From positions 37,031 to 101,030 of the forward strand of contig JAILJC010000180.1 of NCBI GenBank assembly GCA_024694965.1: 64,000 bases of DNA, given 5' to 3'. Position numbers and translations under genes: made by a program. The DNA is from Lachnospiraceae bacterium (GTDB lineage: Bacteria > Bacillota > Clostridia > Lachnospirales > Lachnospiraceae). The notes beneath the pieces are model-generated. The model ran no database searches and was not told the origin of the DNA. It saw only the letters and a program-made list of their open reading frames with translations. This document shows, piece after piece, positions 11,477 through 57,886 of the stretch; the first letter of the stretch is position 1, and each line of letters begins with the position of its first letter.

Positions 11477-11481
11477 GGATA

Positions 11482-14751: not shown

Positions 14752-14777
14752 AAGACAAATCCGCAATACCGGACAGA

Positions 14778-15434: not shown

Positions 15435-15438
15435 GTTA

Positions 15439-27249: not shown

Positions 27250-27265
27250 CGGAGGATGTCGGAAG

Positions 27266-28372: not shown

Positions 28373-28389
28373 CTTCGGAGGACAGGAAA

Positions 28390-29049
28390 TTGTTTACCGG
28401 TATAATTGAGGAACTGGGTACAATTAAAGATATGCCGCCCGCGGGCGTAAGCGGAGCTGTGAGTATCGCCGCATCCAAAGTGCTTGAAGGAACCAAGGTT
28501 GGCGACAGTATCGCGGTAAACGGGATATGCCTAACAGTTACAACACTTTCAACGGACGGATTTACGGCCGATGTAATGCCGGAGACCGTAAGGCGTACTT
28601 CATTATCGATCCTTAAAAGAGGAGATAAGGTTAACCTTGAACGTGCCCTGGCTGTGGGTGGACGTTTCGGAGGACATATAGTTTCCGGACATATAGACGG
28701 TACCGGTAACATAAGGGAGTATAAAAAGGAGGCAAATGCCATATGGGTGACCGTGGCAGCGCCTTCAGACATCCTTCGGCTTATTGTGGAGAAAGGCTCC
28801 ATAGCCATTGACGGCATAAGCCTGACCGTGGCAGCAGTTGATGAAACATCTTTCAAGGTATCGGTGATCCCGCATACGGCACAGGAGACCACGCTGACGC
28901 TGAAACGTCCCGGCGATCCCGTGAATCTTGAAACGGATATAATAGGGAAGTATGTTGAAAAACTGCTGGGAGGAGCATATATAAAAACAGAAGATAAGGG
29001 CACAGCATCGGGAGGATTGACGATGGAAATGCTTGAGGGTCTTTTGTAG
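28390..29049 (+). CDS. ribE: Riboflavin synthase (alpha chain)
   Basis: Starts [10 protein letters not shown]. Internal duplication with [13 protein letters not shown] and [15 protein letters not shown] start. Confidence 0.92.
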
Positions 29050-29071
29050 ATGTGATAATATACACGTTGTA

Positions 29072-30298: not shown

Positions 30299-30308
30299 GA
30301 GGAATAAT

Positions 30309-30782
30309 ATGAGCGATATCAATGTACTTGAAGGAAAAGTGATAGCCAGGGAAGGAATGAAGGTAGGCATAGTCGCATCCCGTTTTAATGAGATAATAGT
30401 AAACAAGCTCCTTGGGGGTGCTGTCGACGGCCTGGTACGTCATGGTGTGGATGAGAAGAACATTACGGCCGCATGGGTACCGGGAGCTTTTGAAATACCT
30501 GTCATTGCCGATAAAATGGCTTCTTCGGGAAAATACGATGCCATCATCTGTGTGGGCGCTGTAATACGTGGCGATACAACTCATTATGATTATGTGTGCA
30601 ACGAGGTTTCGAAGGGTGTTGCTCAGGTTGGGCTCAAGGCGGGTATTCCCGTATTGTTTGGTGTGATAACTACAGAGAATATCGAGCAGGCAGTCGCACG
30701 CGCGGGAAGCAAGGGCGGAAACAAGGGTTATGACTGCGCGCTGTCGGCAATTGAGATGGTAAACCTCATGGACCGGATTTAA
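30309..30782 (+). CDS. ribH: 6,7-dimethyl-8-ribityllumazine synthase
   Basis: Full-length RibH pattern ([14 protein letters not shown]). Confidence 0.95.
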
Positions 30783-44827: not shown

Positions 44828-46225
44828 ATGAAGATTTACAATTCGCTTACAAGAAAGATCGAAGATTTCAAACCTATAGAGGAGGGCAAGGTATCCATGT
44901 ATACCTGCGGGCCCACTGTGTATCATTTCGCACACATAGGGAACTTAAGGAGCTATATCTGCGAGGATGTACTGGAGAAGCTATTAAGGTTCAGCGGTTA
45001 TGATGTAAAGCGTGTGATGAACATTACCGATGTGGGTCATTTATCTTCGGATGCCGATACGGGCGAGGATAAGATGCTTAAGGGTGCAAAGCGCGAGAAC
45101 AAGACGGTCATGGAGATCGCAAAGTTTTATACCGATGCATTCTTTTCGGATTGTGCCAAGCTAAATATTAAAACTCCCGATGTGGTGGAACCCGCAACAA
45201 ACTGCATTCCGGAATTCATAAAGATGATCGAGGGACTTCTTGAGAAGGGTTATGCTTACAAAGCAGGAGAGAATATCTACTTCGATACTTCAAAGCTGAA
45301 GGAATACTTTGTTTTCGGAAATCAGAATGAAGATGAACTCATGGTGGGAGTGCGCGAGGATGTAGAAGAGGATACAAACAAGCGCAACAGGAATGACTTC
45401 GTCCTGTGGTTTACCAAGTCAAAGTTTGAGGATCAGGCACTTAAGTGGGACAGCCCCTGGGGTGTAGGCTATCCCGGCTGGCATATAGAGTGCTCATGCA
45501 TAAGCATGAAGCATCTTGGAGAAAAGCTTGACCTTCATTGCGGCGGCATTGATAATATGTTTCCGCATCATACAAACGAGATAGCACAGAGTGAGTCATA
45601 TATAGGGCATAAGTGGTGCAATTACTGGTTCCATGTCCATCATCTTAACGATGAGTCCGGCAAGATGAGCAAGAGCAAGGGCGAATTCCTTACCGTATCG
45701 CTGCTTGAAAGCAAGGGTTACGATCCGATAGTATACAGGCTGTTCACCCTCCAGTCGCATTACCGGAAGCCTCTTACATTCTCGTATGAAACGCTCGATC
45801 AGACGGTCACCACATATAAAAAGCTTAAGAACCGTATAGCCGCAATAGAGGATTCGGGAGATGTAAGCGAGGCGGCCGTTAAGGAGTGGCATGATAAGTT
45901 TGCGGAAGCCGTAGGGAATGACTGCAATACGGCTATGGGGCTGACTCTGCTTTATGATGTATTAAAATCCGACTTAAACGGTGCGACAAAGTTAAAGATA
46001 ATCGGCGATTATGATTATGTTTTATCCCTTAACCTGCTTAAGCCTGAAGAATCAGAGGCTGTCGATGATGAACTTGCATCATTTGTTGAAGCAAAGATAG
46101 CGGAGCGGGCAGAAGCCAAGAAAGCAAAGGATTACGCAAAAGCGGATGCCATAAGGGAGGAACTTGCCGGTAAGGGTATAATCATTAAGGATACCCGCGA
46201 GGGAACAGTGTGGAGCAGAGCTTAG
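44828..46225 (+). CDS. cysS: Cysteine--tRNA ligase
   Basis: Class I HIGN (HFAHIGN) and KMSKS motifs. Confidence 0.96.
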   Translation: MKIYNSLTRKIEDFKPIEEGKVSMYTCGPTVYHFAHIGNLRSYICEDVLEKLLRFSGYDVKRVMNITDVGHLSSDADTGEDKMLKGAKRENKTVMEIAKFYTDAFFSDCAKLNIKTPDVVEPATNCIPEFIKMIEGLLEKGYAYKAGENIYFDTSKLKEYFVFGNQNEDELMVGVREDVEEDTNKRNRNDFVLWFTKSKFEDQALKWDSPWGVGYPGWHIECSCISMKHLGEKLDLHCGGIDNMFPHHTNEIAQSESYIGHKWCNYWFHVHHLNDESGKMSKSKGEFLTVSLLESKGYDPIVYRLFTLQSHYRKPLTFSYETLDQTVTTYKKLKNRIAAIEDSGDVSEAAVKEWHDKFAEAVGNDCNTAMGLTLLYDVLKSDLNGATKLKIIGDYDYVLSLNLLKPEESEAVDDELASFVEAKIAERAEAKKAKDYAKADAIREELAGKGIIIKDTREGTVWSRA

Positions 46226-46226
46226 G

Positions 46227-46664
46227 ATGGAAGGCAGCATTCTTTCAAATATCAGGGAACGTTTCGAGCTTAAAGATATAGAACCGGAACATTATTCACC
46301 TCTTGCGCTTGCGTTCATCGGTGACAGTGTGTTTGACCTTGTGGTCAAGACGGTACTTGTCGAGAAGGCCAACTGCCCGGCCAATGTCCTGCATCGCAAA
46401 ACGAGCGGTATCGTAAAGGCGCAGTCGCAGGCGGAGATGGCACAGTGGTTTTTGAACAATGATATGCTGAGTGAGGAGGAACAGGGCATTTACCGCAGGG
46501 GGAGGAATGCCAAGTCACCCACAACGGCAAAGAATGCATCGGTATCCGATTACCGCATGGCAACGGGTGTCGAGGCGCTTATCGGATATCTGTACCTTAA
46601 AGACCGTACCGAAAGGCTGGTTGAGCTGATAAAGGCAGGAATGGATAAGATCACGGAGTTATAG
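46227..46664 (+). CDS. mrnC: Mini-ribonuclease 3
   Basis: RNase III-like signature LAFIGDSVFDL, about 145 aa, conserved position after cysS. Confidence 0.85.
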   Translation: MEGSILSNIRERFELKDIEPEHYSPLALAFIGDSVFDLVVKTVLVEKANCPANVLHRKTSGIVKAQSQAEMAQWFLNNDMLSEEEQGIYRRGRNAKSPTTAKNASVSDYRMATGVEALIGYLYLKDRTERLVELIKAGMDKITEL

Positions 46665-46665
46665 G

Positions 46666-47415
46666 ATGTCATACGAGGAAGTACTGATAGAAGGCAGGAA
46701 TGCCGTAATAGAGGCATTAAGGTCCGGCAGGCCTATAGATAAGCTGTATATACTGGACGGATGCCAGGATGGACCGATCTCAACGATAAAGAGGGAAGCC
46801 AGAAAGACGGATGCGATTATAAAGTTCGTCGATAAGGAGCGGCTAGATCAGCTGAGCACAACGGGGCATCATCAGGGCGTCATCGCGCAGTCGGCAGCTT
46901 ATGAATATGCCGATGTTGATGATATCCTGAAAAAAGCGGAAGAAAAGGATGAAGCACCGTTTATCTTCCTGCTTGACAATATCGTTGATCCGCATAACTT
47001 GGGAGCCATAATAAGGACTGCCAATCTATGCGGTGCGCACGGGGTCATAATACCTAAGAACCGTGCGGTAGGACTTACCGCCACCGTTGCAAGGACTTCA
47101 GCGGGAGCCCTTAATTACACTCCGGTTGCCCGTGTGACAAACCTTGCAAGGACGATTGAAGACCTTAAGAAGAAGGGGCTTTGGTTTGTTTGTGCCGATA
47201 TGGACGGCGAGGTGATGTATAAACAGAACCTTACAGGGCCGATAGGCCTTGTGATAGGGGCCGAGGGCGAGGGAGTAAGCAGGCTCGTTAAGGAAAAATG
47301 CGATTATGTCGCATCGATCCCCATGAATGGAGACATAGATTCACTGAACGCTTCGGTAGCAGCCGGAGTGCTTGCGTATGAGATAGTTAGGCAGAGGATA
47401 AATGAACGCGGATAA
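46666..47415 (+). CDS. rlmB: 23S rRNA (guanosine-2'-O)-methyltransferase, TrmH/SpoU family
   Basis: SpoU methylase motifs: DPHNLGAIIRTA, GAEGEGV, SLNASVAAGV. Confidence 0.85.
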   Translation: MSYEEVLIEGRNAVIEALRSGRPIDKLYILDGCQDGPISTIKREARKTDAIIKFVDKERLDQLSTTGHHQGVIAQSAAYEYADVDDILKKAEEKDEAPFIFLLDNIVDPHNLGAIIRTANLCGAHGVIIPKNRAVGLTATVARTSAGALNYTPVARVTNLARTIEDLKKKGLWFVCADMDGEVMYKQNLTGPIGLVIGAEGEGVSRLVKEKCDYVASIPMNGDIDSLNASVAAGVLAYEIVRQRINERG

Positions 47416-48031
47416 ATACGAAGGATTGTCTGATATTGAACTTATAATGCGATCTCGTGACGGTCACAGCGATGTGACCGATTATCTTATGGAAAAATAC
47501 AAGGATCTTGTCCGGAGTAAGGCCAGGTCAATGTTCATCCTGGGGGCCGATAACGATGACCTTATCCAGGAAGGCATGATAGGGCTTTTCAAGGCAGTCA
47601 GGGACTACGATTCGGGAAGGGATGCAAGCTTTTTTACCTTCGCCGAGCTGTGCATATCAAGGCAGATATACACGGCGGTCCAGGCTTCGCGGCGCCAGAA
47701 GCATATTCCCCTTAATAACTATATATCCCTTTACGGAAACGTTTCGGATGATCCGGCAGATGCCGATAAGTACTTAATAGACGCGCTTCAGCCGGACGGC
47801 GACTTAAGTCCCGAAGAGCTGGTCATCGACAGGGAGAATGTACACAGGCTGGAGCAGCGTATCGAGGAGAGCTTAAGTCCGTTTGAAAAGCAGGTTCTCG
47901 ACCTCTATATAACCGGCATGTCATATGTCAAGATAGCCGCCGTTTTAGGAAAGGATGAAAAGTCAACGGATAATGCGCTTCAAAGGCTTAAATCCAAGAT
48001 AAAAAAGATAATTAAAGAGGACATAAAATAA
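47402..48031 (+). CDS. sigH: RNA polymerase sigma factor SigH
   Basis: Sigma-70 region 2 (DLIQEGMIGLFKAVRDYD) and region 4, at the conserved position after rlmB. Confidence 0.85.
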   Translation: MNADKYEGLSDIELIMRSRDGHSDVTDYLMEKYKDLVRSKARSMFILGADNDDLIQEGMIGLFKAVRDYDSGRDASFFTFAELCISRQIYTAVQASRRQKHIPLNNYISLYGNVSDDPADADKYLIDALQPDGDLSPEELVIDRENVHRLEQRIEESLSPFEKQVLDLYITGMSYVKIAAVLGKDEKSTDNALQRLKSKIKKIIKEDIK

Positions 48032-48086: not shown

Positions 48087-48159
<73 letters not shown>

Positions 48160-48188
48160 CTGGATTTCAAGGTTTAAGTAAAAAAGTT

Positions 48189-48228
48189 TCCCCCTGGGTT
48201 TTCCCCATATTAGGGGGATTCTTTTTTT
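48189..48228 (+). terminator. Terminator-like hairpin after tRNA-Thr
   Basis: TCCCCCT...AGGGGGA (or the inner CCCC-atatta-GGGG) followed by TTCTTTTTTT. Confidence 0.5.
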
Positions 48229-48385: not shown

Positions 48386-48643
48386 GCTTTCCTTTAAATA
48401 ATTAGAGATGTATTATGCGGTGATGGGATGCGGGGATTAAATTATGAAGCATCTTTTGTATGTGGAAGCCCCCCATGTCATAATAATATTTTCAGCAGGA
48501 TATATTTGAGCAGGGAATATTTTTGCAGGCGTTTTCTATAACAGATAGTTCACATCGGGGCGTTTTATGCGGTCTTGTTTGTTACTTTTTACAAAAATGT
48601 TACAACTATTTTTGTTATATAGTAACAAAATTTAAAATATCAG

Positions 48644-48672
48644 TTGAAATACATATAAATACATGTTATAGT
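48644..48672 (+). promoter_or_regulatory. Sigma-A promoter candidate for the essC-led cluster
   Basis: TTGAAA, a 17-nt spacer, then TATAGT. Lies about 100 nt upstream of ATG 48771 in an AT-rich spacer. Confidence 0.4.
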
Positions 48673-48770
48673 CATAATCGCGAGTTAAGGATTCATAGCT
48701 TATATTCGAATCAGATCATGTTATAAACGATTCGTATTAAACTCTATAGATATAGTTTTAAGGTAGTAAA

Positions 48771-51700
48771 ATGCATATAGTAATACAGGTATACAACTCT
48801 CATTCCTTAGAGGAGTTTGTATTTAAGGCTTACCCCCTGCCTGATGAACGGGCCACGGCACTTTTCAAGCTTCGCTCGGACATGTTTCGCCTGAAGGCGG
48901 ATCGTGTCATCTCTCTGATCATATCAAATAATGGGGTCGCCCTAAACGGGACTGACACCGAAGTGTATCATCAGTATCAGGATAAAAAAATCAAATGTGA
49001 AAACATCATATCAGATGATGCCGGGCTCGTTCTGGTGACAGGGGACAGGGAAGTACTTAAGATGGCGGTGTATTTTGCGTCCGATGAAGGGATGAGGTTC
49101 TACAAGGTTGGCGATAAGGATTTAATCACTGTCGGGAATTCTCCCAAAAGGACAGTCAGTCTGCTTGGCAACCAATATATCTCCGATCTGCAGTTGATGT
49201 TTAGGAAGGCTGATGCAGGCGGGATAATGAATGTAAGGTCCGAAACAGGATGCTATTTAAACGGGAGATATATCGGACCTATGAATACGGCAGAATTAAA
49301 ATACGGTGATGTGATAACAACAGGAGGCGTAAGGCTGTTATGGCTGGATGAATGTATCGGTTTTGAAGCCCTGTATATAGGACCTCCCTGTGTTGTAAGG
49401 CTTAAGGAATGTACCCGCTTACGAAAGGTAGATAGAAGCAGGGGAGATGACGGTTTCACACCCGGGGTGCGAAACCTGATAAGGACGGATAATCCTGTGA
49501 TAGAGCTGGATGCTCCGCCACCGGCACCGAATATCCGTCGCCAGCCTGCTTATCTGGCCGTCGGACCGTCGCTTACAATGGCAGTCCCGATGTGTCTGGG
49601 GTGCGGGATGTATATATATGCAGCTTCACGGGCGGGTACCGGAGGCTCAGCAATATATATGTATACGGGACTGGTAACGGCAATTGCATCCGCGATACTT
49701 GGTACGGTGTGGGCCGTTGCGAACTTAAGGCAGAGCAGGCGACAGGAGAAGGAAGATGAAAGGCAGCGGATAAGGACATATAAGGAGTACATAAACAGCT
49801 GTACAAGACGCATAGAAGATAAATACAGGTATAACAGGAATGCCCTAAAGAGGAACAGCCCCGGACTGGATGAGATTTTAAAAGGGAACCTGAACAGCTT
49901 TGTACTTAACAGGCGTTTAGACGATGAAGATCTTTACAGGTACAGGCTGGGCACGGGTAAGTGCAGGTTTGAAGTGGATATAAGGGTTCCGAAGGAAAAG
50001 TACATGCCGGTTCCTGATGAGCTTGCGTCGCTCCCGCTCAAACTCAAGCAAAAATACTTAAAGATAAGTGATGTACCCATATGTACGGATATTAAAGCCG
50101 ACAGGATCCAGGGTTTTATAGGAAGGAACGGACAGGGGCTTGAACAGCTGTTTCTTAACATTGCCCTTCAGATAGCGGCGACAACCGGCCCCGAGCTTAT
50201 AAGGATGGTATTTCTGTTTGGGGATAATGTGATACCTGAGGGTGCGGTAAGGATAATGAGGTGGCTTCCCCAGGCACAGGGAGATGACGGACACTATGTA
50301 TGCACGGATCGTGACAGGAACGATGAACTGCTGTGTTTTCTAGAAGGGATCATTAAGAATCATGAAAACATCGTACACAGATGGATAGTATTTACGGATG
50401 ATCATAAAAGGCTGCCGCCTTCATTGCTAAGCAGGGAGGATCTAAGCCTACTGGTATTTGCAAAAGAGTACAGGTCGCTGCCCGGTGAGTGCAGATGCAT
50501 TATACAGAATGATGCTTCATACAGAGGCATGCTGATGCCGGGAAGGGAAGAATTAAGAAGGGATATATGTTTTGATCACATTTCGCTTAAGGAAGCCGAA
50601 GGATATATAAGACGCATTGCCGGAGTATGCAGGTATGTAAAATCGGCAGTAAAACCGATACCCGCACTTGTGACTCTTCCGATGCTTTATGATACAGACA
50701 ATATAAGGCATAATGATATAGCGGCTTTCTGGCGGGATAACAACACAATAAACAGCATTAGGGCGCCTATCGGTATGGCAGGGGATCAAAGAGTGATATC
50801 CCTCGATCTGCATGAAAAGGCGCATGGACCTCACGGCCTGGTGGCCGGTATGACAGGGAGCGGAAAGAGTGAACTGCTGCAGACATTGATACTGTCTTTG
50901 GCGTTACGGTATCCGCCATGGGAGGTCGGATTTTTTCTTATCGATTACAAAGGAGGCGGCATGGCTTCAATGTTTGAAGGGCTGCCCCATCTTATAGGAA
51001 GCATATCAAATCTGTCCGGCAATATCACGGACAGGGCACTGCTGTCGATACGCAGTGAAAACGAACGCAGGCAGAGGCTGTTCCTTGATGCGGGTGTCAA
51101 CTCGATCAGGGACTACGGCAGGAAATTTCTTGACGGCACTGTAGCCATGCCGCTTCCCCACATTTTGATAATCATAGACGAGTTTGCCGAGCTTAAGCGC
51201 GAGCAGCCGGAATTTATGAAGGAACTCATAAGCGTTGCTCAGGTGGGAAGGAGCCTTGGAGTTCATCTGATCCTTGCAACTCAGAAACCCGCAGGCACGG
51301 TTGACGATAACATTTTTTCAAATTCCAGGTTCAGGATATGTTTAAGAGTTCAGGATAAGCAGGACAGCAATGACATGCTGCACAGACCTGATGCGGCTTA
51401 TATAAAAAACCCGGGAAGGGCATATTTCCAGGTGGGAAACGATGAACTGTTTGAGGAGTTCCAGTCGGGATACACTATGGAACCCTGTATGGTTGAAAGT
51501 GATACGGGAACATTATGTCTGCTTGACAGAAACGGACGCAGGATAAAGGTATCGGAAAACCACATTGAAAATGAAGAAGCGGATACACATTTTTCTATGT
51601 CCATGAAGGTTATCAGACGTTGTTATGAAGAAAGTGACCATGCCACGATACAGAAGCTCTGGCTTCCCGAGCTTGACACAAGGCTGGTGCTTAACGAAAC

Positions 51701-53171
51701 AGCTATCCGCATATCCGATGATGAGCCCGGAGTGATCATCGGAAGATATGACGATCCCGAAAACAGAGAGCAGGGCGATTACAGGATAGATCTTTTAAGG
51801 ACCGGGCACATGGCGGTATGCGGCAGTGCACAAAGCGGAAAGAGTACGTTACTGCAAACGCTGATAATGTCGTTGCTAAGTCACACGGTTAAGATAGACC
51901 CTGCCATCTATATAGTCGATTACAGCAACGGTATTCTTTCATGCTTTAGGGACAGTGTGCTCGTGGGTGCATACATAAATGAAGATACTCAAGACAGGCT
52001 TGGTAACCTGTTCTGTTTGATAAGGGAGATCATTGACAGGCGCCGCACACAGTGGGACGGTATAAGCTTTTCAAACCGCAGGGATCAGTACGCGATATCC
52101 GATAAGGCCATCATACTGGTGATCGACAATTACGGAGCGTTCAGGGAGAAAACGGATTGCATTTATGATGATGCGATGCAGGAATTTATAAAGTACGGCG
52201 AAACCTATGGTGTATTTGTCATACTTACCGGAAGCGCAATAGGAAGTTCGGATATACCGGTCCGACTTTTTGAAAACATCAGGACGGGAATATGCTTAAG
52301 GTTAAATGACAGGTACCAGTACAGTGAATGTCTGCGTCAGATACATTTACCTGTTATGCCGGCCGAAGCAGGCGGAAGGGGACTTGCATATATATCAGGG
52401 CGGATACTTGAGTTTCAGACATATCTTATACTTGCGGAAAATGACAGGCAGCGGAATGAACTTATAAAGAAGGAAGTCGGCTATATCAATGTGAATGATC
52501 GGACTGTGCCGGCAAAGAGAGTTCCGTTCATACCAAAGGAACCTTCGGTTGAGGATCTTGATGGGGCGATTAAAGACATAATCCTTAATAATGGGCAGCT
52601 TCCCATCGGGTATGATGCCGTAAGTGCAAGGCCGTTTATAATAGATCTTTCCGATACACCATGCCTAATGTTTGCCGGTGCATGCAAAAGCGGAAAGAGC
52701 AATGCCTTGAGGGTGATACGTCATTACGCAGAAAGAGCAGGGATAAAGGTAAAAGATACGGGCAGTATAAGGAGCATATACGAAGCATTCAGGGAGGAAC
52801 CCGATGTGCTCGTTATCTGTGACGGAATCGAATCGGTAATAGATGATTTCTACAAAAACGACAGGGATGAGGCAATTGAAAAGGAAATGACGGAGCTTAT
52901 CGGTAAAAAGGGACATTGTATGGTATTTACCGTTTCATCATCGGGACATGCAGGTGTGGCAGGGCGAAGGATTTATGAACAGATACGTGCCGTATGCATG
53001 GGAATATACCTGGGCGGAAGCATTGATAAGCAGAATGTGTTTGACTTTTCATATCTTCCTTACAGTTTGCAGTGCCGCGCGGGTGAAGCGGGTATGGGAA
53101 CGGTGTTAAGGCGTGGCAGGGCAGCATCTTGCAATGACGTAGTGATCCCGTATGCGGAGGAAGTTAAGTAA
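48771..53171 (+). CDS. essC: Type VII secretion FtsK/SpoIIIE-family ATPase, EssC/YukB-like
   Basis: 1466 aa. N-terminal FHA-like region of about 200 aa, two TM helices (about aa 260-320), then three P-loop modules: GMTGSGKSELLQT with Walker B IIIDEFAELK; GSAQSGKSTLLQT; GACKSGKSNALRV. Confidence 0.9.
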   Translation: MHIVIQVYNSHSLEEFVFKAYPLPDERATALFKLRSDMFRLKADRVISLIISNNGVALNGTDTEVYHQYQDKKIKCENIISDDAGLVLVTGDREVLKMAVYFASDEGMRFYKVGDKDLITVGNSPKRTVSLLGNQYISDLQLMFRKADAGGIMNVRSETGCYLNGRYIGPMNTAELKYGDVITTGGVRLLWLDECIGFEALYIGPPCVVRLKECTRLRKVDRSRGDDGFTPGVRNLIRTDNPVIELDAPPPAPNIRRQPAYLAVGPSLTMAVPMCLGCGMYIYAASRAGTGGSAIYMYTGLVTAIASAILGTVWAVANLRQSRRQEKEDERQRIRTYKEYINSCTRRIEDKYRYNRNALKRNSPGLDEILKGNLNSFVLNRRLDDEDLYRYRLGTGKCRFEVDIRVPKEKYMPVPDELASLPLKLKQKYLKISDVPICTDIKADRIQGFIGRNGQGLEQLFLNIALQIAATTGPELIRMVFLFGDNVIPEGAVRIMRWLPQAQGDDGHYVCTDRDRNDELLCFLEGIIKNHENIVHRWIVFTDDHKRLPPSLLSREDLSLLVFAKEYRSLPGECRCIIQNDASYRGMLMPGREELRRDICFDHISLKEAEGYIRRIAGVCRYVKSAVKPIPALVTLPMLYDTDNIRHNDIAAFWRDNNTINSIRAPIGMAGDQRVISLDLHEKAHGPHGLVAGMTGSGKSELLQTLILSLALRYPPWEVGFFLIDYKGGGMASMFEGLPHLIGSISNLSGNITDRALLSIRSENERRQRLFLDAGVNSIRDYGRKFLDGTVAMPLPHILIIIDEFAELKREQPEFMKELISVAQVGRSLGVHLILATQKPAGTVDDNIFSNSRFRICLRVQDKQDSNDMLHRPDAAYIKNPGRAYFQVGNDELFEEFQSGYTMEPCMVESDTGTLCLLDRNGRRIKVSENHIENEEADTHFSMSMKVIRRCYEESDHATIQKLWLPELDTRLVLNETAIRISDDEPGVIIGRYDDPENREQGDYRIDLLRTGHMAVCGSAQSGKSTLLQTLIMSLLSHTVKIDPAIYIVDYSNGILSCFRDSVLVGAYINEDTQDRLGNLFCLIREIIDRRRTQWDGISFSNRRDQYAISDKAIILVIDNYGAFREKTDCIYDDAMQEFIKYGETYGVFVILTGSAIGSSDIPVRLFENIRTGICLRLNDRYQYSECLRQIHLPVMPAEAGGRGLAYISGRILEFQTYLILAENDRQRNELIKKEVGYINVNDRTVPAKRVPFIPKEPSVEDLDGAIKDIILNNGQLPIGYDAVSARPFIIDLSDTPCLMFAGACKSGKSNALRVIRHYAERAGIKVKDTGSIRSIYEAFREEPDVLVICDGIESVIDDFYKNDRDEAIEKEMTELIGKKGHCMVFTVSSSGHAGVAGRRIYEQIRAVCMGIYLGGSIDKQNVFDFSYLPYSLQCRAGEAGMGTVLRRGRAASCNDVVIPYAEEVK

Positions 53172-53174
53172 AGC

Positions 53175-53468
53175 ATGATAAGGTTTGAGGTTTATGCTCT
53201 TTCGTGGGCAAAGACTTATGAGATCGAGGCCGGTGAAAATACAAAAGTAAGTGAACTATTATGTTTCATCTCGGGTTTGTGCGGTGAAACTGAAAGAGGT
53301 ATTCTTTTAAGCCTGTCCGGGAAGGGCATGCTGGATGAAAGCATAAGCCTTAAGGAGCAAGGGGTATTATCCGGAGATAAGCTTATGTATATATCGGCAG
53401 GGTATAGGAAAGGAGGTAAAGGTGAAGCCGTTAAGCGCGGTATATGTGCGGATGAAGGGGCTGCTTGA
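53175..53468 (+). CDS. Small ubiquitin-like (EsaB/YukD-like) protein
   Basis: About 80-aa core ending ...LKEQGVLSGDKLMYI, which resembles the EsaB/YukD beta-grasp C-terminus. Lies immediately after essC. Called from context plus weak similarity. Confidence 0.55.
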   Translation: MIRFEVYALSWAKTYEIEAGENTKVSELLCFISGLCGETERGILLSLSGKGMLDESISLKEQGVLSGDKLMYISAGYRKGGKGEAVKRGICADEGAA

Positions 53469-53721
53469 TGAACTGGGGGTTGTGTCGGAAAACCTGTACG
53501 GTAAAATTGCGGGACTTGAAGAAGCCATTTCAGGTCTGGGGATATCATGGGAGGGAACCGCTTATGAACAATACAGTATAAGGTTAAAGGATGATCTTAA
53601 TTTTATGAAAGCCAAGGCTTTGAACCTGAAGGTCATGTATCTTATGCTTAGCACCCTGCTTGCGGGGTATCAGAATACTGAAATTAAAGTAGGCAGTATT
53701 ATAGGAGGATTAAAAAAATGA
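53422..53721 (+). CDS. WXG100-family protein 1
   Basis: 99 aa, central W-x-G (ISWEGTAYEQY), helix-turn-helix length. GTG start 5 nt after AGGAGG; the alternative is ATG 53452. Confidence 0.7.
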   Translation: MKPLSAVYVRMKGLLDELGVVSENLYGKIAGLEEAISGLGISWEGTAYEQYSIRLKDDLNFMKAKALNLKVMYLMLSTLLAGYQNTEIKVGSIIGGLKK

Positions 53722-54017
53722 GTATTAAGGATGAGATCGATATCCAGTTTGGACGGGCAATGCAGCAGGCGGAAGAACTTGAGGAACTCTCGGGCATGAT
53801 CTGCAATATAGGGAGTGAAAAGTTAGATGGAGCACTGACCCTGCTGACCAAGTCTTGGAAGGGAGAAAACGCAGGAGAATTTACCGGCAAGGTAAATGTT
53901 ATAAGAAACAGGATGTACGGATGTGCGGAGGCGCTTAAGGAAACGTCGAAGCTTATAAAGCTGACGGCGGGGCGGATTTATGATGCCGAGATGGCGGCAA
54001 TAAGGATGATAAGTTAG
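53718..54017 (+). CDS. WXG100-family protein 2
   Basis: 99 aa, central W-x-G (KSWKGENAGEF), good RBS (TAGGAGGA). Confidence 0.72.
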   Translation: MSIKDEIDIQFGRAMQQAEELEELSGMICNIGSEKLDGALTLLTKSWKGENAGEFTGKVNVIRNRMYGCAEALKETSKLIKLTAGRIYDAEMAAIRMIS

Positions 54018-54037
54018 GAAGAAAAGGAGGATCAGAT

Positions 54038-54337
54038 ATGTCATTTTTTCAGGTTACAGCAGCGGAGCTAAGGAAAAAGGCCGACCAGTTAAAAGGTCTT
54101 AACTCAAGGTTTAAGGGATCGGTTGATTCAATGCAGGCGACAGAACAGTCGTTAAAATCAATGTGGGAGGGTGAAGCAAACGAGACATTCCATAAAACGT
54201 TTGTAAATGATAAGGGAAAAATGGACCAGTTTCACGCGGCAATAGACAGGTTTATAGAGGCACTTCTGATAATTGCGGCAAAGTATGAGGAAGCAGAGAA
54301 AAAGAACACTCAGACCGCAGCGGTAAGAAGCTGTTAA
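54038..54337 (+). CDS. WXG100-family protein 3 (EsxA-like)
   Basis: 99 aa. N-terminal FQVTAAELRKKA, W-x-G (SMWEGEANETF), C-terminal YEEAEKKN. RBS AAAGGAGGA. Confidence 0.85.
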   Translation: MSFFQVTAAELRKKADQLKGLNSRFKGSVDSMQATEQSLKSMWEGEANETFHKTFVNDKGKMDQFHAAIDRFIEALLIIAAKYEEAEKKNTQTAAVRSC

Positions 54338-54367
54338 TGCGGACATGAATAAACGGAAAGGAGAAGG

Positions 54368-54685
54368 ATGATGACAGGTTTGTTAAAGGTTACGCCGGAA
54401 AAACTGATCGCGGCGTCAAATGAATTCAGTACGGTTGGAAAAACAGTAAGGTCGCTTACACAGGAAATGAATGATATAGTTTCGTCTCTGAAATCGGTGT
54501 GGATGGGAGAAGCAGCCACCGGATACGGATCGAAGTTTGCCGAACTTTCAGATGATATAGAAAAGATAAACAGAATGATACAGGAACATGTGACAGATCT
54601 TAACAATATGGCAAGAGAGTACCAGACGGCGGAGGATACAAATACACAGCAGGCTGCAGCTCTCAAAACGGATATCGTTGCATAA
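54368..54685 (+). CDS. WXG100-family protein 4 (EsxA-like)
   Basis: 105 aa. N-terminal LKVTPEKLIAASNEF, W-x-G (SVWMGEAATGY), C-terminal YQTAEDTN. RBS AAAGGAGAAGG. Confidence 0.85.
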   Translation: MMTGLLKVTPEKLIAASNEFSTVGKTVRSLTQEMNDIVSSLKSVWMGEAATGYGSKFAELSDDIEKINRMIQEHVTDLNNMAREYQTAEDTNTQQAAALKTDIVA

Positions 54686-54696
54686 GAGGTAAAACT

Positions 54697-56043
54697 ATGG
54701 AAGTAGGATACAAGAATCTTATCCTTATAGACAATTCAATGTCTGTCGGTGATGCCAATTTCATGCTGTGCAGGGAAACGGCAAAATATATATGCGAAAA
54801 CGGAGGAACGCAGGATACTTTCAGGCTTGCCACTTTCGGTGAGGATATAGAATACTTAACCGATTATACATCCGACAATGTGCTCCTTACTGACAGCATA
54901 GATGATCTTCAGCTTACGGACAGAGACACGTTTATAACGGATAATCTGGTGAAGATTTTGCGTGAGTGGAAGGAGCAGGACGTTGCATGCAGGAATATAA
55001 TCCTGTTTACCGACGGTGAGGAATCGGAATCCGTGCTGCATGCGGATGAGGAATTGTATTATCTGTTAAGGGATTCGGAATATCCCGTTTATGTAGTGCA
55101 GAGTATTGAAAAAATAGGGATACCGGCAACAAAAAATCTTTCGGCTATAGCAACGATAAGCGGAGGCAGGCTGCTTCTTACAGAGTTTGAAGGCTCCGAT
55201 GCATCAAGTGAGATAACTTTGGGAAGTGCTATACTTTCCGCGATCGATATTTCGCGTGAAGCAAAGGAGGAAGAAATCCATGCGGCGGAAATCACCGATA
55301 GTAAAGAGGAAATCCATGAAGAGGCAGAAGCAGCAGAAGAGGCGGATGAACCGGTTTCGTCCGCGGAAAGCCTTATGATATACGGTGATAAAGGTATGGG
55401 TACAGATATGCACAGTGAAACGGTACCGGTAAACACTCCCGAAACGCATGCTTCTGTTAATACGCCCATCATAAAACACACTACGGAGCAACACTCCGGC
55501 ATCAGTCTGGGTGTTATATTCCCGATCCTGGGATTTGTGTTTGCACTTGCGTTTGCGATCATCATACGTCTTATCACATCAAGGAACAATGAAGACTCCC
55601 TAGGGAACAGCAGGTTAAAGGAGACGATCGAGGAGGAACTTAAGCGAGAAGCAATGATAGCGCTTGATGCCGAAGAATATGACTGCATGACAGTGAAACT
55701 TAATGATCCGGGAACGAATACAAGGCTGCTTTCCCAAAACGCAGGCAGCCATGATATAGTTCTGGAGGACTGTAATGATCCTACAAGGTTATTCAGGGCT
55801 TCAAGTGACAGTGCCCTGATCGTAGGGAGGTCGGCAGGCTTGTGCGATGTTGCGATAGACTATGATGATTCTATATCCGGAAGGCATTGCGAACTTTCGG
55901 TAAAGGATGGAAGCTGGTATGTCAGGGACCTTAATTCATCCAACGGTACCAGGGTGAACGGGCAGAAGGTATTCCAGGAATTGATGCTTAAGTGCGGAGA
56001 TATATTAATGCTCGGACAGTCATCCCTTCAGGTGAGGATATGA
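54697..56043 (+). CDS. vWA - single TM - FHA membrane protein
   Basis: N-terminal vWA with an intact MIDAS DxSxS (LIDNSMS) and ILFTDGEE. Acidic linker. TM helix ISLGVIFPILGFVFALAFAIIIRLI. C-terminal FHA (VGRSAG...SISGRHCEL...VRDLNSSNGTRVNGQKV). Confidence 0.85.
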   Translation: MEVGYKNLILIDNSMSVGDANFMLCRETAKYICENGGTQDTFRLATFGEDIEYLTDYTSDNVLLTDSIDDLQLTDRDTFITDNLVKILREWKEQDVACRNIILFTDGEESESVLHADEELYYLLRDSEYPVYVVQSIEKIGIPATKNLSAIATISGGRLLLTEFEGSDASSEITLGSAILSAIDISREAKEEEIHAAEITDSKEEIHEEAEAAEEADEPVSSAESLMIYGDKGMGTDMHSETVPVNTPETHASVNTPIIKHTTEQHSGISLGVIFPILGFVFALAFAIIIRLITSRNNEDSLGNSRLKETIEEELKREAMIALDAEEYDCMTVKLNDPGTNTRLLSQNAGSHDIVLEDCNDPTRLFRASSDSALIVGRSAGLCDVAIDYDDSISGRHCELSVKDGSWYVRDLNSSNGTRVNGQKVFQELMLKCGDILMLGQSSLQVRI

Positions 56044-57356
56044 GAGAATTAAGTGAGAAGGAGCTGCTGCTTCTATCCAATTATCTGTACATTGATAAAT
56101 GTACGGAATACGGGACAATAAATGAAATGCTTGACAGCTGCCGCGGCGCAGACGGAAGTATAGATGAAGGAAAGGTGGCTGCACTTGGTATAGGCGGATG
56201 TATGAGTGCCCAGGAGGGCTGCCGCATACTTAATGAAATGGATGCATGCGGAGCAGGACTCTGCAGCCTGAGTGTTGCAAGAAGTATAGATGCAGGTGGG
56301 ATACGCGCTATATGTTTTGAGTCACGCGATGGAGATGCTACGGTTGTATTCCGCGGGACGGGCGGAGATTACGAGCCATGGGTTGACAATGTACGGGGTG
56401 AATATCAAAGCGATACCAGAATGCAAAAGCTCGCGGATGATTTTATAAGATATGACTGCGGCGTATATGACAGTATCACCGTGTCCGGACACAGTAAGGG
56501 AGGTAATCTGGCCCAGTATGTTACGGTTCTTAACAATGACAGGGTTGACAGATGCATATCCTTTGACGGGCAGGGTTTCGGAAAGGGCTTTTTTGATTCT
56601 TACGCTAAGGACGTCGGACCGGCGAGCGCAAAGATAAAATCCATATGCGCACATAATGATTATGTAAACCTGCTTCTGGGAGCTATAGCCTGCGAGATAG
56701 TGTTTGTAAAAAACCGTCACAGCGATCCGGTGGGATGCCACAGTTCATTTGCGCTTTTTGACAGCTGTGAATTTGACAAAAGCGGAAACATAGTAAATCT
56801 GACAGAACAGAGTAAGCTTATGAAGGGAGCGAAATCCCTGACTTCATATCTTACGGGATACATGGATTCGCTTCCGGGAGAGGGCGGCATGCTATTAAGT
56901 GAATTGCTCGCAGCAAATGTTGCCGCAGTATTCAGCTCGGAACTTGGCGAAGAATATGAAAATGAAAGGAAATACAAAGCAGGACTTGACGTTAAGCGCT
57001 ATCTTGCTTCTTCGGCCGGATTTGACATAAAGGATCCGCTGCGCGATGTGAGCATAGTTACCGATGAATTATATATTGATCCGGCGGGGCTTAAGGAAGC
57101 GGCAAGCCTAATCTTAAATACAGGCAGGGAAATGGATGCTGCGGCACTTAAGCTTGCAGAGCTGCGACATAAAATTGATTATAAGGCTGCCGCTAAGCTT
57201 GCGGTTGACATAATACTTAGGAAGGCTGAAAACAAAATGACTGAATATGCGGCTATGACTGTATCGCGCGGTGAAGCATTAAGTGAGATAAGCCGGTTGT
57301 ATGAAGAGAGGGAAAAAGAGATCCTAAGCTGCATAGGATCGATCACGTTTGCCTAA
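56040..57356 (+). CDS. DUF2974 / Mbeg1-like alpha/beta hydrolase with a C-terminal WXG/LXG-like helical extension (candidate T7 substrate)
   Basis: ATG 56040 overlaps the previous stop (ATGA) and follows GGTGAGGA. Nucleophile elbow SGHSKGGNLAQY, and FDGQGF. The last roughly 97 aa (57063-57353) are helical and begin LYIDPAGLKEAAS, like the N-termini of the adjacent Esx proteins. Confidence 0.8.
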   Translation: MRELSEKELLLLSNYLYIDKCTEYGTINEMLDSCRGADGSIDEGKVAALGIGGCMSAQEGCRILNEMDACGAGLCSLSVARSIDAGGIRAICFESRDGDATVVFRGTGGDYEPWVDNVRGEYQSDTRMQKLADDFIRYDCGVYDSITVSGHSKGGNLAQYVTVLNNDRVDRCISFDGQGFGKGFFDSYAKDVGPASAKIKSICAHNDYVNLLLGAIACEIVFVKNRHSDPVGCHSSFALFDSCEFDKSGNIVNLTEQSKLMKGAKSLTSYLTGYMDSLPGEGGMLLSELLAANVAAVFSSELGEEYENERKYKAGLDVKRYLASSAGFDIKDPLRDVSIVTDELYIDPAGLKEAASLILNTGREMDAAALKLAELRHKIDYKAAAKLAVDIILRKAENKMTEYAAMTVSRGEALSEISRLYEEREKEILSCIGSITFA

Positions 57357-57886
57357 AGTGTATCGTGATCGTAACCGTGACTGTCAAGGAAGCGTTCAAA
57401 CATATTATCCCAGGCTTCATTAAGAGTGCGGTCTATGGAAAAGATATTAAGTGAAACGGCGGTGGTGCATGTAAGTGCACCGCCGTCATATTTTATATTT
57501 ACGTTTAGTGAGCTTATCTGTTCCGGAAGAACCGGGGAGTCTACCGAGTTAAGGAACTTTATAACGTTTTCCTGAGCAAGAGCGAGAGTGATCCTGAAAG
57601 AAAGAGGAGGCTTTTTTCCGCGGATATATGAATAGCAGTAGCCTTTGACAGATTCCCATCGGATCAGATTTTCACTGAAAATACGCCCGCTTTCTTTGGC
57701 TTTTTCCCTAAGCAGGTCCAGCTCATCTGCGGTATAGAAATCCTTATTGATATGACCGTCAATAGTGTAGGCATTGGAAGTGGAAATGATCGCTTCACTT
57801 AAAAGGAAGCTGTCAAAAACCGTTTCTTTTTCCGACAGAAGACCGGTCATGAAGATTGCGGCGTTGTTTATCTTAAAAAGCTTCAT
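57353..57886 (-). CDS. Hypothetical cytoplasmic protein (177 aa)
   Basis: Clean ORF and last gene of the minus-strand argG operon. Its stop overlaps the stop of the hydrolase gene. No recognised motif. Confidence 0.55.
   Translation of the reverse strand: MKLFKINNAAIFMTGLLSEKETVFDSFLLSEAIISTSNAYTIDGHINKDFYTADELDLLREKAKESGRIFSENLIRWESVKGYCYSYIRGKKPPLSFRITLALAQENVIKFLNSVDSPVLPEQISSLNVNIKYDGGALTCTTAVSLNIFSIDRTLNEAWDNMFERFLDSHGYDHDTL

What the first reader, a model, noticed from the sequence alone, without database searches (positions are those of the whole stretch)
48771..57356. Stripped-down, non-canonical type VII-like secretion locus lacking EssA, EssB and EsaA
Seen: eight co-directional, tightly packed genes. 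In order they are an EssC-type ATPase (FHA-like N-terminus, 2 TM, three P-loop modules), a small YukD/EsaB-like protein, four WXG100 proteins, a vWA-TM-FHA protein, and a DUF2974 hydrolase with a helical tail. Established: the Firmicute T7SSb core is EsaA/YueB, EssA/YueC, EssB/YukC, EssC, EsaB/YukD and EsxA, normally with esxA first and essC late. Here essC comes first, and none of the three other membrane components is within 48 kb upstream or 7 kb downstream. The only other membrane protein in the cluster is the vWA-TM-FHA protein. Inference: either this is a minimal T7-like machine in which the vWA/FHA protein substitutes for the EssB/EsaA scaffold, or it is an accessory module that depends on a canonical system elsewhere. 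I am not aware of a described T7SS with this composition.
Basis: partly seen in the sequence, partly recalled or inferred. Interest (0 to 1): 0.85.

Follow-up and report, generated by a model that had tools for sequence, protein, structure and literature searches.

The report
Minimal Lachnospiraceae type VII secretion locus
An eight-gene type VII protein-export cluster in an uncultured rumen Lachnospiraceae bacterium lacks the usual membrane partners, keeps one unusual membrane protein, and seems dedicated to exporting a lipase-like enzyme, which makes it a new variant within the diversity of such systems described in 2024.

Summary
Window 48771-57356 holds eight tightly packed co-directional genes. 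They encode an EssC-type ATPase, a YukD-like ubiquitin-fold protein, four WXG100 proteins, a vWA-TM-FHA protein, and an Mbeg1/DUF2974 serine hydrolase with a C-terminal WXG100-like hairpin carrying a YxxxE export motif. Pfam finds no EssA, EssB or EsaA among the ORFs scanned across the window. None appears in the gene tables read for seven related loci either.

The same eight genes, in the same order, recur in more than 20 species-level Lachnospiraceae MAGs, mostly from rumen. They occur down to about 30% protein identity and at three or more chromosomal sites. Against the closest ortholog, dN/dS is 0.02-0.25. This is a conserved functional unit.

Garrett, Higginson and Palmer (2024) described eight non-canonical T7SS subtypes (T7SSc-j), with FHA, vWA, kinase and phosphatase components and "reverse" lipase cargo. 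None has this composition.

The nearest EssC relatives sit in larger T7SSe/j-like loci with kinase or phosphatase genes. Two of the three loci examined also encode vWA-TM-FHA proteins.

My best reading is a reduced, self-contained T7SS variant that exports WXG100 proteins and a hard-wired reverse lipase, with the vWA-TM-FHA protein as a phospho-responsive membrane partner of EssC. Whether another T7SS exists elsewhere in the genome could not be tested.

The parts
48644..48672 (+). sigma-70-like promoter candidate (TTGAAA-17-TATAGT with TG), about 100 nt upstream of essC
   Evidence: Consensus scan. The count of such sites in the region is not above the shuffled expectation. Region 48579-48745 is 82% identical in the closest orthologous locus, L005. 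No Rfam element lies in the leader.
48771..53171 (+). EssC/TsxC-type FtsK-family secretion ATPase: two N-terminal FHA-like beta domains, two TM helices, a degenerate domain, and three P-loop domains
   Evidence: The best solved relative is B. subtilis YukB (9qks, 352 bits), ahead of T. curvata EccC (241 bits). In this protein the FHA pThr-binding Arg and His are replaced (GN... and SDLQ).
53175..53468 (+). YukD/EsaB/TsxB-like ubiquitin-fold protein, with a C-terminal extension that overlaps the next gene
53422..53721 (+). WXG100-like protein W1 (GTG start; WEG; C-terminal YQNTE)
   Evidence: The alignment shows a conserved WxG and YQxTE. hhalign to W3 gives 96.5%. There is a strong RBS.
53718..54017 (+). 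WXG100-like protein W2 (WKG), translationally coupled to W1
   Evidence: (weak WXG100 and T7SS_signal hits).
54038..54337 (+). WXG100 protein W3 (WEG; KYEEAE)
   Evidence: PF06013 2.2e-12 and TIGR03930 53 bits. It is 48-86% identical across loci.
54368..54685 (+). WXG100 protein W4 (WMG; HVxDLxxMAxEYQxAED), the most conserved gene of the cluster
   Evidence: PF06013 8.4e-14 and TIGR03930 55 bits. It is 54-93% identical across loci, with dN/dS 0.017.
54697..56043 (+). Bitopic vWA-TM-FHA protein: vWA with a MIDAS motif (1-170), an acidic disordered linker, a TM helix (271-299), a juxtamembrane helix, an invariant T342-R-L-L motif, and a canonical FHA domain (350-448)
56040..57356 (+). Mbeg1-like/DUF2974 class-3-lipase-fold serine hydrolase (FRGTGG, GHSKGG; S152, D207, H234) fused to a C-terminal WXG100-like helical hairpin with Y421xxxE425
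57458..57487 (+). strong terminator-like hairpin (13 bp, 8 GC) about 100 nt past the last stop codon, inside the convergent DUF5721 gene
   Evidence: pattern match only.

Best explanation
This is a reduced, self-contained variant of the Firmicute type VII secretion system, carried by a clade of uncultured, mostly ruminal, Lachnospiraceae.

Shown by sequence analysis here:
- EssC has two TM helices and three intact Walker A motifs.
- Its neighbours are a YukD-like ubiquitin-fold protein, four conserved WXG100 paralogues, one bitopic vWA-TM-FHA protein, and a serine hydrolase with a C-terminal WXG100-like hairpin.

Inferred mechanism:
1. EssC multimerises in the membrane as the motor and channel.
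2. The YukD-like protein bridges EssC to a membrane partner, as YukD bridges YukB to YukC in B. subtilis. Here that partner is the cytoplasmic FHA and juxtamembrane part of the vWA-TM-FHA protein.
3. That protein therefore takes the topological place of EssB or the TsxD kinases: a cytoplasmic signalling domain, one TM helix, and an extracellular domain.
4. Its canonical FHA domain, together with an invariant T-x-x-L motif about 20 residues upstream, makes assembly or activity responsive to Ser/Thr phosphorylation by a kinase encoded elsewhere.
5. W3 and W4 are the EsxA/EsxB-like core pair.
6. W1 and W2 are Lap/Tla-like partners. They bundle with the hydrolase's C-terminal hairpin to form the composite export signal.
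7. The Mbeg1-like lipase/esterase is the dedicated cargo, a "reverse" substrate like TslA and TslM.
For: Component identities.

Conservation of the unit:
- The same eight genes occur in the same order in 21 species-representative Lachnospiraceae MAGs. They also occur in metagenome contigs down to 30-36% identity.
- The same cassette sits at other chromosomal sites: behind a two-component system in L035 and L036, and with different upstream genes in L034.
- Across the seven family loci whose gene tables were read (L001-L004, L034-L036), no further membrane protein recurs beside the cassette. L035 carries one extra 238-aa gene inside it.
- dN/dS against the closest ortholog is 0.02-0.25 for all eight genes.

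Cargo:
- The catalytic motifs are invariant across 34 homologues, and Y421xxxE425 is nearly invariant.
- The AF2 model (pLDDT 86.5) shows an alpha/beta hydrolase followed by a 90-residue helical hairpin.
- The hairpin matches W4 (74.6%) and W3 (52.6%) by hhalign over about 82 columns.
- Reverse lipases with WXG100 partners are proven T7SSb substrates (PMC10730906, PMC13560087). They are also noted at T7SSe and T7SSg loci, and "DUF2974" occurs 74 times in the T7SS neighbourhood supplement (PMC11217815).

vWA-TM-FHA protein:
- MIDAS and pThr-binding residues are invariant.
- There are 4-8 K/R residues on the C-terminal side of the TM helix, and distant homologues carry a signal peptide. Both put the vWA domain outside and the FHA domain inside.
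- Homologues sit directly after the WXG genes in larger T7SS loci with kinase and PP2C genes (L038, L032).

YukD bridging role: preprint 10.1101/2025.01.24.634720.
Against: - There is no experimental evidence of secretion, and all carriers are uncultured.
- The rest of the genome could not be searched, so a canonical or larger T7SS elsewhere is not excluded.
- In Heliobacterium the vWA-TM-FHA gene sits in a pure Ser/Thr-signalling cluster with no EssC nearby. The protein could therefore be a regulator only, not a structural subunit.
- The window protein has no signal peptide, yet its 270-residue vWA domain is predicted to be outside. This is unexplained.
- No immunity gene is evident, which is unusual if the lipase is an antibacterial toxin.
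- The partner assignments (W1/W2 with the lipase, W3/W4 as the core pair) rest on gene order and conservation only.
- The EssC score is just below the TIGR03928 cut-off.
Confidence: 0.6

Rival explanations
1. Accessory module. The cassette supplies a second EssC, WXG proteins and a cargo, but relies on membrane components (EssA/EssB/EsaA, or TsxD/I/K-type) of another T7SS encoded elsewhere in the genome.
For: Two different T7SS subtypes can co-occur in one clostridial genome (PMC11217815). Lachnospiraceae and Ruminococcaceae MAGs do encode larger T7SS loci whose EssC is the closest relative of this one. The rest of this genome was not available.
Against: The cassette has its own ATPase, its own YukD-like protein and its own membrane protein. 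It keeps the same eight genes at three or more chromosomal sites and down to about 30% identity, which is how an autonomous unit behaves. Among the 120 EssC-like clusters listed, only one carries this MAG's locus-tag prefix (K6E63). This is weak evidence, because most hits are unnamed.
Confidence: 0.15
2. The vWA-TM-FHA protein is only a signalling switch, not part of the translocon. In this view it is a GarA/OdhI-like or ArnA/ArnB-like phospho-regulator that gates EssC, and EssC with YukD alone forms the channel.
For: The same domain architecture sits in a kinase/PP2C/FHA cluster without any EssC in Heliobacterium undosum. The FHA domain is closest to Mtb FhaA, GarA and OdhI, and both halves hit the Sulfolobus ArnA/ArnB complex 8s05. 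A T-x-x-hydrophobic motif just upstream of the FHA domain resembles the self-binding phospho-switch of GarA. The motif itself comes; the comparison with GarA is from my own knowledge.
Against: It is present in every copy of the cassette examined and evolves at a rate similar to EssC. It is the only candidate for the membrane partner that every characterised T7SS has. The retained YukD-like protein implies a partner to bridge to. The two roles are not mutually exclusive.
Confidence: 0.2
3. The hydrolase is not a toxin. It would be a secreted nutritional or plant-cell-wall esterase or lipase (feruloyl-esterase-like) that the rumen bacterium exports through a dedicated T7SS.
For: The best structural matches are Aspergillus feruloyl esterase A (2bjh, 2ix9), ahead of a T6SS lipase effector (9cys). 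The gene is single-copy, orthologous and vertically conserved in every cassette. There is no adjacent variable immunity array and no conserved immunity-like neighbour. DUF5721 is adjacent in the sigH-argG context but 7-10 kb away in L035 and L036 and absent in L002 and L025. The carriers are mostly rumen organisms.
Against: All experimentally studied reverse T7SS lipases are antibacterial phospholipases (PMC10730906, PMC13560087). DUF2974 domains recur in T4SS and T6SS antibacterial effectors. The fold match is generic to class-3 lipases. Substrate specificity cannot be read from sequence.
Confidence: 0.35
4. Decaying or non-secretory remnant: an FtsK-like ATPase operon with an unrelated role.
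For: EssC falls just below the TIGR03928 trusted cut-off. NCBI annotates it as hypothetical.
Against: All eight ORFs are intact in more than 20 lineages, with dN/dS well below 1. Walker A motifs, catalytic triad, WxG, YxxxE, MIDAS and FHA residues are all conserved.
Confidence: 0.03

Closest known systems
T7SSb of Bacillota (S. aureus Ess, B. subtilis Yuk)
   Same: The EssC-type ATPase has an FHA-like N-terminus, and its best solved relative is YukB. There is a free-standing YukD/EsaB-like protein, WXG100 proteins, and a reverse lipase cargo with WXG-like partners.
   Different: No EssA, EssB/YukC or EsaA/YueB in the window or in the gene tables read for seven related loci. essC comes first in the cluster. 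There are four WXG100 paralogues where T7SSb has one EsxA. A vWA-TM-FHA protein takes the place of a pseudokinase partner.
T7SSc-T7SSj variants (Garrett, Higginson & Palmer 2024, PMC11217815)
   Same: The shared concept is TsxA/TsxB/TsxC plus lineage-specific partners, with no EssA/B/EsaA. FHA, vWA, kinase and phosphatase themes recur, and so does reverse lipase cargo. T7SSg is similarly small (A1, A2, B, C, L). T7SSe and T7SSg also have WXG pairs. T7SSe/f/j have a separate FHA protein, and T7SSc has a vWA protein.
   Different: No subtype has a single vWA-TM-FHA protein. TscE is cytoplasmic vWA only, and TsxJ is DUF6382-FHA. This locus has no kinase, PPM phosphatase, TsxI, TsxK, TsxL or TsxV. 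The lipase is a fixed member of the cassette, not variable cargo. The carriers are uncultured Lachnospiraceae MAGs; the 2024 survey searched RefSeq, and 'Lachnospiraceae' does not occur in its main text or the supplements held.
Larger Lachnospiraceae/Clostridia T7SS loci found here (L032, L033, L038)
   Same: They hold the closest EssC relatives (33-38% identity). The order EssC-YukD-small helical proteins-vWA-TM-FHA is the same in L038, and L032 has two vWA-FHA genes.
   Different: They add a Ser/Thr kinase, PP2C, DUF6382-FHA, LytTR, a giant Ig-like surface protein, DUF4176 and other genes, which is T7SSe/i/j-like content. They have no Mbeg1-like gene. Their vWA-TM-FHA proteins carry signal peptides.
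Reverse T7SS lipase toxins TslA and Tsl2/TslM (PMC10730906, PMC13560087)
   Same: [quoted passage not shown]
   Different: There is no DUF576 or DUF1433-type immunity array. The gene is single-copy and conserved, not polymorphic. The tail is a short WXG100-size hairpin with YxxxE, not a longer LXG-like domain.
FHA/vWA phospho-regulators (Sulfolobus ArnA-ArnB, PDB 8s05; GarA/OdhI; T6SS Fha/TagH)
   Same: A canonical pThr-binding FHA domain is paired with a vWA domain. There is precedent for threonine-phosphorylation control of a secretion machine (T6SS, discussed in PMC11217815).
   Different: Here the two domains are fused across a membrane helix, so they sit in different compartments. No cognate kinase is in the locus.

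Membership tests
Type VII secretion system (general, TsxA/B/C core) | Membrane-bound FtsK/SpoIIIE-family EssC/EccC ATPase with several NTPase domains | tested here: met
   TIGR03928 758 bits (cut-off 778). FtsK_SpoIIIE three times. Walker A at 693, 1018 and 1303. Two TM helices. Best PDB relatives are YukB and EccC.
Type VII secretion system (general, TsxA/B/C core) | WXG100-family protein(s) encoded in the cluster | tested here: met
   W3 and W4 pass the PF06013 and TIGR03930 cut-offs. W1 and W2 have a conserved WxG and profile similarity.
Type VII secretion system (general, TsxA/B/C core) | Small ubiquitin-like EsaB/YukD/TsxB protein | tested here: met
   The window protein alone is weak (E=0.05). 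Nine of 18 positional orthologues hit PF08817 (6.5e-9), and the profile hits ubiquitin folds.
Type VII secretion system (general, TsxA/B/C core) | EssC-dependent export of WXG100 proteins | not testable with these tools
   This needs secretome work. All carriers are uncultured MAGs.
T7SSb | EssB/YukC pseudokinase membrane protein | tested here: not met
   No PF10140-type hit among the ORFs scanned across the window, nor in the gene tables of L001-L004 and L034-L036. The rest of the genome was not searchable.
T7SSb | EsaA/YueB large polytopic protein and EssA/YueC | tested here: not met
   Apart from EssC, the only ORF above 700 aa in the window is a transglutaminase-core surface protein. No EssA or EsaA family hit was found. 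The genome-wide status is unknown.
T7SSc | EssC without FHA, plus TscD kinase, TscE cytoplasmic vWA, TscF PPM phosphatase and TscG | tested here: not met
   EssC has an FHA-like N-terminus. There is no kinase or PPM in the cluster. The vWA domain is membrane-anchored and fused to FHA.
T7SSf | TsfJ (DUF6382-2TM-FHA), TsfF PPM phosphatase and TsfV AAA+/TadZ | tested here: not met
   There is no DUF6382 hit at E<=0.1 in the FHA protein, which has a single TM. No PPM or AAA+ gene is present.
T7SSg | EssC without FHA, TsgL DUF5050 beta-propeller, and adjacent Tad pilus genes | tested here: not met
   None of these is in the window or the related loci.
T7SSe / T7SSj / T7SSd | TsxD membrane Ser/Thr kinase and TsxI giant Ig-like protein (plus TsxF, J, K, H) | tested here: not met
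   These are absent from the cassette. They are present in the loci of the nearest EssC relatives, L032 and L033.
Reverse-arrangement T7SS lipase substrates (TslA/Tsl2-like) | N-terminal lipase-fold domain with a GxSxG Ser-Asp-His triad | tested here: met
   GHSKGG, D207 and H234 are invariant in 34 homologues. The fold matches class-3 lipase/feruloyl esterase and a T6SS lipase.
Reverse-arrangement T7SS lipase substrates (TslA/Tsl2-like) | C-terminal helical targeting domain with an export motif, next to WXG100-like partner genes | tested here: met
   AF2 hairpin at 348-437. Y421xxxE425 is nearly invariant. hhalign to W4 gives 74.6%. Four WXG genes lie upstream.
Reverse-arrangement T7SS lipase substrates (TslA/Tsl2-like) | Cognate immunity protein(s) encoded nearby | tested here: not met
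   No conserved candidate was found. DUF5721 is not an obligatory neighbour, and the 238-aa genes in L035 and L002 are unrelated.
Reverse-arrangement T7SS lipase substrates (TslA/Tsl2-like) | Sequence homology to TslA or TslM | not tested
   Reference sequences could not be retrieved here. There is only a weak NCBIfam SA1320-family hit (E=0.0015).

The most novel reading that the evidence does not exclude
The eight genes are a complete, autonomous T7SS and the smallest Firmicute one known. Its only non-ATPase membrane subunit is a receptor-like protein with an extracellular MIDAS-vWA domain and a cytoplasmic pThr-binding FHA domain. In this clade that protein reaches an N-out topology without a signal peptide, possibly through the T7SS itself. 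The machine is hard-wired to one cargo, a WXG100-tailed lipase/esterase that may serve rumen nutrition and not interbacterial killing.
Probability: 0.25. Interest if true: 0.75.

Novelty: new variant of a known kind. Interest (0 to 1): 0.55.

Why it matters
What forms the channel is still an open question for Firmicute T7SS, as is the minimal set of partners EssC needs. A conserved eight-gene cassette with a single extra membrane protein and a fixed cargo is an attractive candidate for heterologous reconstitution and structure work.

It also extends the 2024 catalogue of T7SS variants into uncultured rumen and gut Lachnospiraceae, which that paper does not mention. It adds a recurrent, so far unnamed, T7SS-associated component: a vWA-TM-FHA protein that links an extracellular ligand-binding domain to phosphothreonine signalling. 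It further suggests that reverse lipases can be core, non-polymorphic cargo.

Tried and rejected
- DUF5721 as an immunity or partner gene. It is convergent and adjacent in the sigH-argG context, but 7-10 kb away in L035 and L036 and missing in L002 and L025. I treated it as synteny.
- The 238-aa genes beside the lipase in L035 and L002 as a shared immunity family. They are unrelated.
- A hidden small membrane gene or RNA element in the 610-bp leader. The 67-aa ORF is not conserved as a protein beyond the closest locus, where the DNA itself is 82% identical. There is no Rfam hit.
- A genomic island at tRNA-Thr. This was rejected because the cassette is syntenic across many species between sigH and argG, with no integrase or repeats nearby. 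Repeats were not searched for explicitly.
- Direct sequence match of the lipase to solved structures. Nothing turned up below E=0.4.
- Looking up the window's own contig to extend the flanks. Two look-ups found no record.
- dN/dS with more distant orthologues. dS is saturated, so only the closest pair (L005) is quoted, and even there dS exceeds 1.
- The NJ tree of EssC has no bootstrap support, so I use it only as a rough guide.

Full report
**1. What is there**

Window 48771-57356 holds eight + strand ORFs with gaps of 3, -47, -4, 20, 30, 11 and -4 nt. All are preceded by GGAGG-like ribosome-binding sites.

A tRNA-Thr with its terminator (48087-48221) separates the cluster from the upstream sigH-like gene. 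A promoter-like site lies at 48644-48672, and a strong hairpin lies about 100 nt past the last stop.

Family scans identify the genes as follows:
- **EssC-type ATPase (1466 aa).** TIGR03928 scores 758 bits against a 778 cut-off. Pfam finds FtsK_SpoIIIE three times and FHA at residues 120-184.
- **YukD-like protein.** It is a weak match on its own (E=0.05). Nine of 18 positional orthologues hit PF08817, and the family profile finds ubiquitin folds.
- **Four roughly 100-aa proteins, W1-W4.** All have a conserved central WxG. W3 and W4 pass the curated cut-offs. W1 matches W3 at 96.5% by hhalign.
- **An Mbeg1-like/DUF2974 hydrolase.**

EssC has Walker A motifs at 693, 1018 and 1303 and two TM helices. 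Its best solved relative is B. subtilis YukB, ahead of actinobacterial EccC.

The hydrolase most likely starts at ATG 56040, not 55992. W1 really does start at GTG 53422.

**2. Absence of the canonical partners**

Pfam scans of about 50 ORFs across the window returned only housekeeping functions. These include ABC transporters, the rib operon, recA/recX, rny and ispF upstream, and a transglutaminase-like surface protein downstream (argG was read from the translation and the tables of related loci). The four genes cysS to sigH (44828-48031) were not scanned here; they were read from the precomputed table of the orthologous locus L003.

No YukC/EssB, EssA or EsaA family was hit. No unexplained large polytopic protein exists in the window. 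The rest of the genome could not be examined, so a T7SS elsewhere remains untested.

**3. Conservation**

- Homologues of the vWA-TM-FHA protein come almost entirely from Lachnospiraceae MAGs and metagenomes.
- A scan of one genome per GTDB species found 21 Lachnospiraceae MAGs, mostly from buffalo, sheep, goat and cattle rumen, and no cultured isolate.
- Wherever the contig is long enough, tblastn finds the eight genes in the same order. In the most divergent loci the YukD-like gene and W1 fall below the tblastn threshold. The cassette is usually followed by the convergent genes DUF5721, DUF1294 and argG (gene tables).
- Identities to the window range from 30-36% (vWA-FHA, EssC) up to 54-93% (W4).
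- The same cassette also sits at a different chromosomal site, behind a response regulator and histidine kinase, in L035 and L036.
- Against the closest orthologue, all eight genes have dN/dS of 0.02-0.25, although dS is saturated.

This is a stable functional unit, not a chance juxtaposition and not a remnant.

**4. The hydrolase is best read as the cargo**

- Across 34 homologues, FRGTGG, GHSKGGN, D207 and H234 are invariant. Y421xxxE425 near the C-terminus is nearly invariant. YxxxD/E is the classical T7SS export motif (my own knowledge).
- The AF2 model (pLDDT 86.5) shows an alpha/beta-hydrolase domain, a helical extension, a short disordered linker, and a 90-residue helix-turn-helix hairpin.
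- The catalytic domain matches class-3-lipase folds: feruloyl esterase A and a T6SS lipase effector.
- The hairpin profile aligns over its full length with W4 (74.6%) and W3 (52.6%). That is as strong as some matches among the bona fide WXG paralogues.
[quoted passage not shown] They were also noted at T7SSe and T7SSg loci. "DUF2974 domain-containing protein" occurs 74 times in the T7SS neighbourhood supplement of PMC11217815.

Unlike those toxins, this hydrolase is a single-copy orthologue fixed in every cassette, and no conserved immunity-like neighbour was found. Whether it is an antibacterial phospholipase or a nutritional esterase therefore stays open.

**5. The vWA-TM-FHA protein**

- The MIDAS residues are conserved (DxSxS, T81/D82, D106). 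The FHA pThr-binding residues are invariant: G377, R378, S394, H397 and S414-N416-G417-T418.
- The AF2 model and Foldseek confirm a vWA fold, a disordered acidic linker, a TM helix (271-299), a juxtamembrane helix, and an FHA domain closest to Mtb FhaA.
- The C-terminal flank of the TM helix carries 4-8 K/R residues in nearly all homologues. More distant homologues, including those in cassettes L036 and L025 and in the larger loci L032 and L038, carry a classical signal peptide. Both facts place the vWA domain outside the cell and the FHA domain inside.
- The window protein and its close relatives have lost the signal peptide. How their vWA domain would be exported is unexplained.
- An invariant T342-R-L-L motif lies about 20 residues before the FHA domain. 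A T-x-x-hydrophobic pattern at that position persists even in distant homologues. It fits the pT+3 hydrophobic preference of FHA domains (my own knowledge). This suggests a phospho-switch or a phospho-dependent oligomerisation, which is inference.
- By contrast, the FHA-like domain of EssC in the window lacks the key Arg and His.

**6. Relatives and evolutionary context**

- The nearest EssC proteins outside the family (33-38% identity) belong to larger Lachnospiraceae and Ruminococcaceae loci.
- L032 adds a giant Ig-like protein, DUF6382-FHA, a ParA-like ATPase, LytTR, PP2C and two vWA-FHA genes.
- L033 adds a kinase-TPR protein, a giant Ig-like protein, LytTR and small FHA proteins. This is T7SSe/i/j-like content.
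- L038 has the order EssC, YukD, four small genes, SP-vWA-TM-FHA, kinase, LysM protein, PP2C.
- In Heliobacterium undosum the same protein type sits in a pure kinase/PP2C/FHA cluster without EssC.
- A rough NJ tree puts most cassette EssCs in one clade. L025 and L036 fall in a small neighbouring clade that is sister to the large-locus EssCs.

Taken together, vWA-TM-FHA looks like a Ser/Thr-signalling module that clostridial T7SSs recruited. The eight-gene cassette is a version without a dedicated kinase or phosphatase and with a fixed lipase.

**7. Comparison with what is known**

Garrett, Higginson and Palmer (2024; PMC11217815) defined T7SSc-j, all with their own sets of partner proteins in place of EssA/EssB/EsaA.

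None of the subtypes c-j has this composition, as the membership table sets out. That survey searched RefSeq. "Lachnospiraceae" does not occur in its main text or in the supplements held.

Full-text searches found no paper that combines type VII secretion with Lachnospiraceae, and none describing a system of this kind in rumen bacteria or with vWA-FHA components.

In B. subtilis, YukD bridges YukB to the pseudokinase YukC (preprint 10.1101/2025.01.24.634720). A YukD-like protein retained here without YukC argues for an alternative partner, and the vWA-TM-FHA protein is the only candidate. This is inference.

**8. Verdict**

The best explanation (confidence about 0.6) is a reduced, autonomous T7SS variant that exports WXG100 proteins and a hard-wired reverse lipase, with a phospho-responsive vWA-TM-FHA partner.

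The main rivals are:
- dependence on another T7SS encoded elsewhere (0.15);
- a purely regulatory role for the vWA-TM-FHA protein (0.2, and not mutually exclusive with the best explanation).

Novelty: a new variant of a known kind. Interest: 0.55.

Noticed in passing
window 446-1585 (+): A second Mbeg1-like/DUF2974 protein (PF11187, 3e-81). It is 379 aa, with no signal peptide and no WXG-like tail. It is only 30% identical over 117 aa to the T7SS-linked hydrolase, so it is a distant housekeeping-type paralogue.
   Followed up: partly
window 54697-56043; homologues P0048, P0050, P0051, P0059; L025 9770-11335; L032 21502-23040: Distant homologues of the vWA-TM-FHA protein carry an N-terminal Sec signal peptide. 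The window protein and about 45 close relatives start directly at beta-1 of the vWA fold, although charge bias still predicts the vWA domain outside. The export route is unexplained.
   Followed up: partly
L037 (Heliobacterium undosum WXEY01000007.1) 9429-17723: An SP-vWA-TM-FHA gene is embedded in a Ser/Thr-signalling cluster (FHA protein, two PP2C, trypsin-FHA, two kinases) with no EssC within 10 kb. This suggests the module predates its association with T7SS.
   Followed up: no
L038 (Logan SRR31865988 contig) 489-17397: Another undescribed T7SS layout lies next to a phage-type integrase. The order is EssC, YukD, four small genes, SP-vWA-TM-FHA, a 929-aa kinase, a 1172-aa LysM protein and PP2C.
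   Followed up: no
L032 (ENA ERZ28654013 scaffold_101) 1-25007: A large Lachnospiraceae T7SS locus. It has two vWA-FHA genes, DUF6382-FHA, a ParA/CbiA-like ATPase, a GDSL lipase, DUF4176, a 606-aa double-zinc-ribbon protein, LytTR, an extra 661-aa FtsK-like ATPase, five WXG100 genes and PP2C.
   Followed up: no
window 27230-30782: A riboflavin biosynthesis operon (ribD, ribE, ribBA, ribH) with no FMN riboswitch detected at the Rfam gathering threshold.
   Followed up: no
window 48087-48221: tRNA-Thr(GGT) with its own terminator sits between the sigH-like gene and the T7SS cluster. No integrase is nearby, and the position is syntenic in related MAGs, so it is probably not an island junction.
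   Followed up: partly
window 60101-63928 (-): A 1275-aa protein with an N-terminal hydrophobic (signal-like) segment and a transglutaminase-core domain. It is unrelated to the cluster and is replaced by arg biosynthesis genes in related loci.
   Followed up: no
EssC N-terminus, loci L002, L018, L020, L021, L022, L034: One branch of the family has an EssC about 150 aa shorter. It lacks the first of the two N-terminal FHA-like domains but keeps the rest of the cassette.
   Followed up: partly
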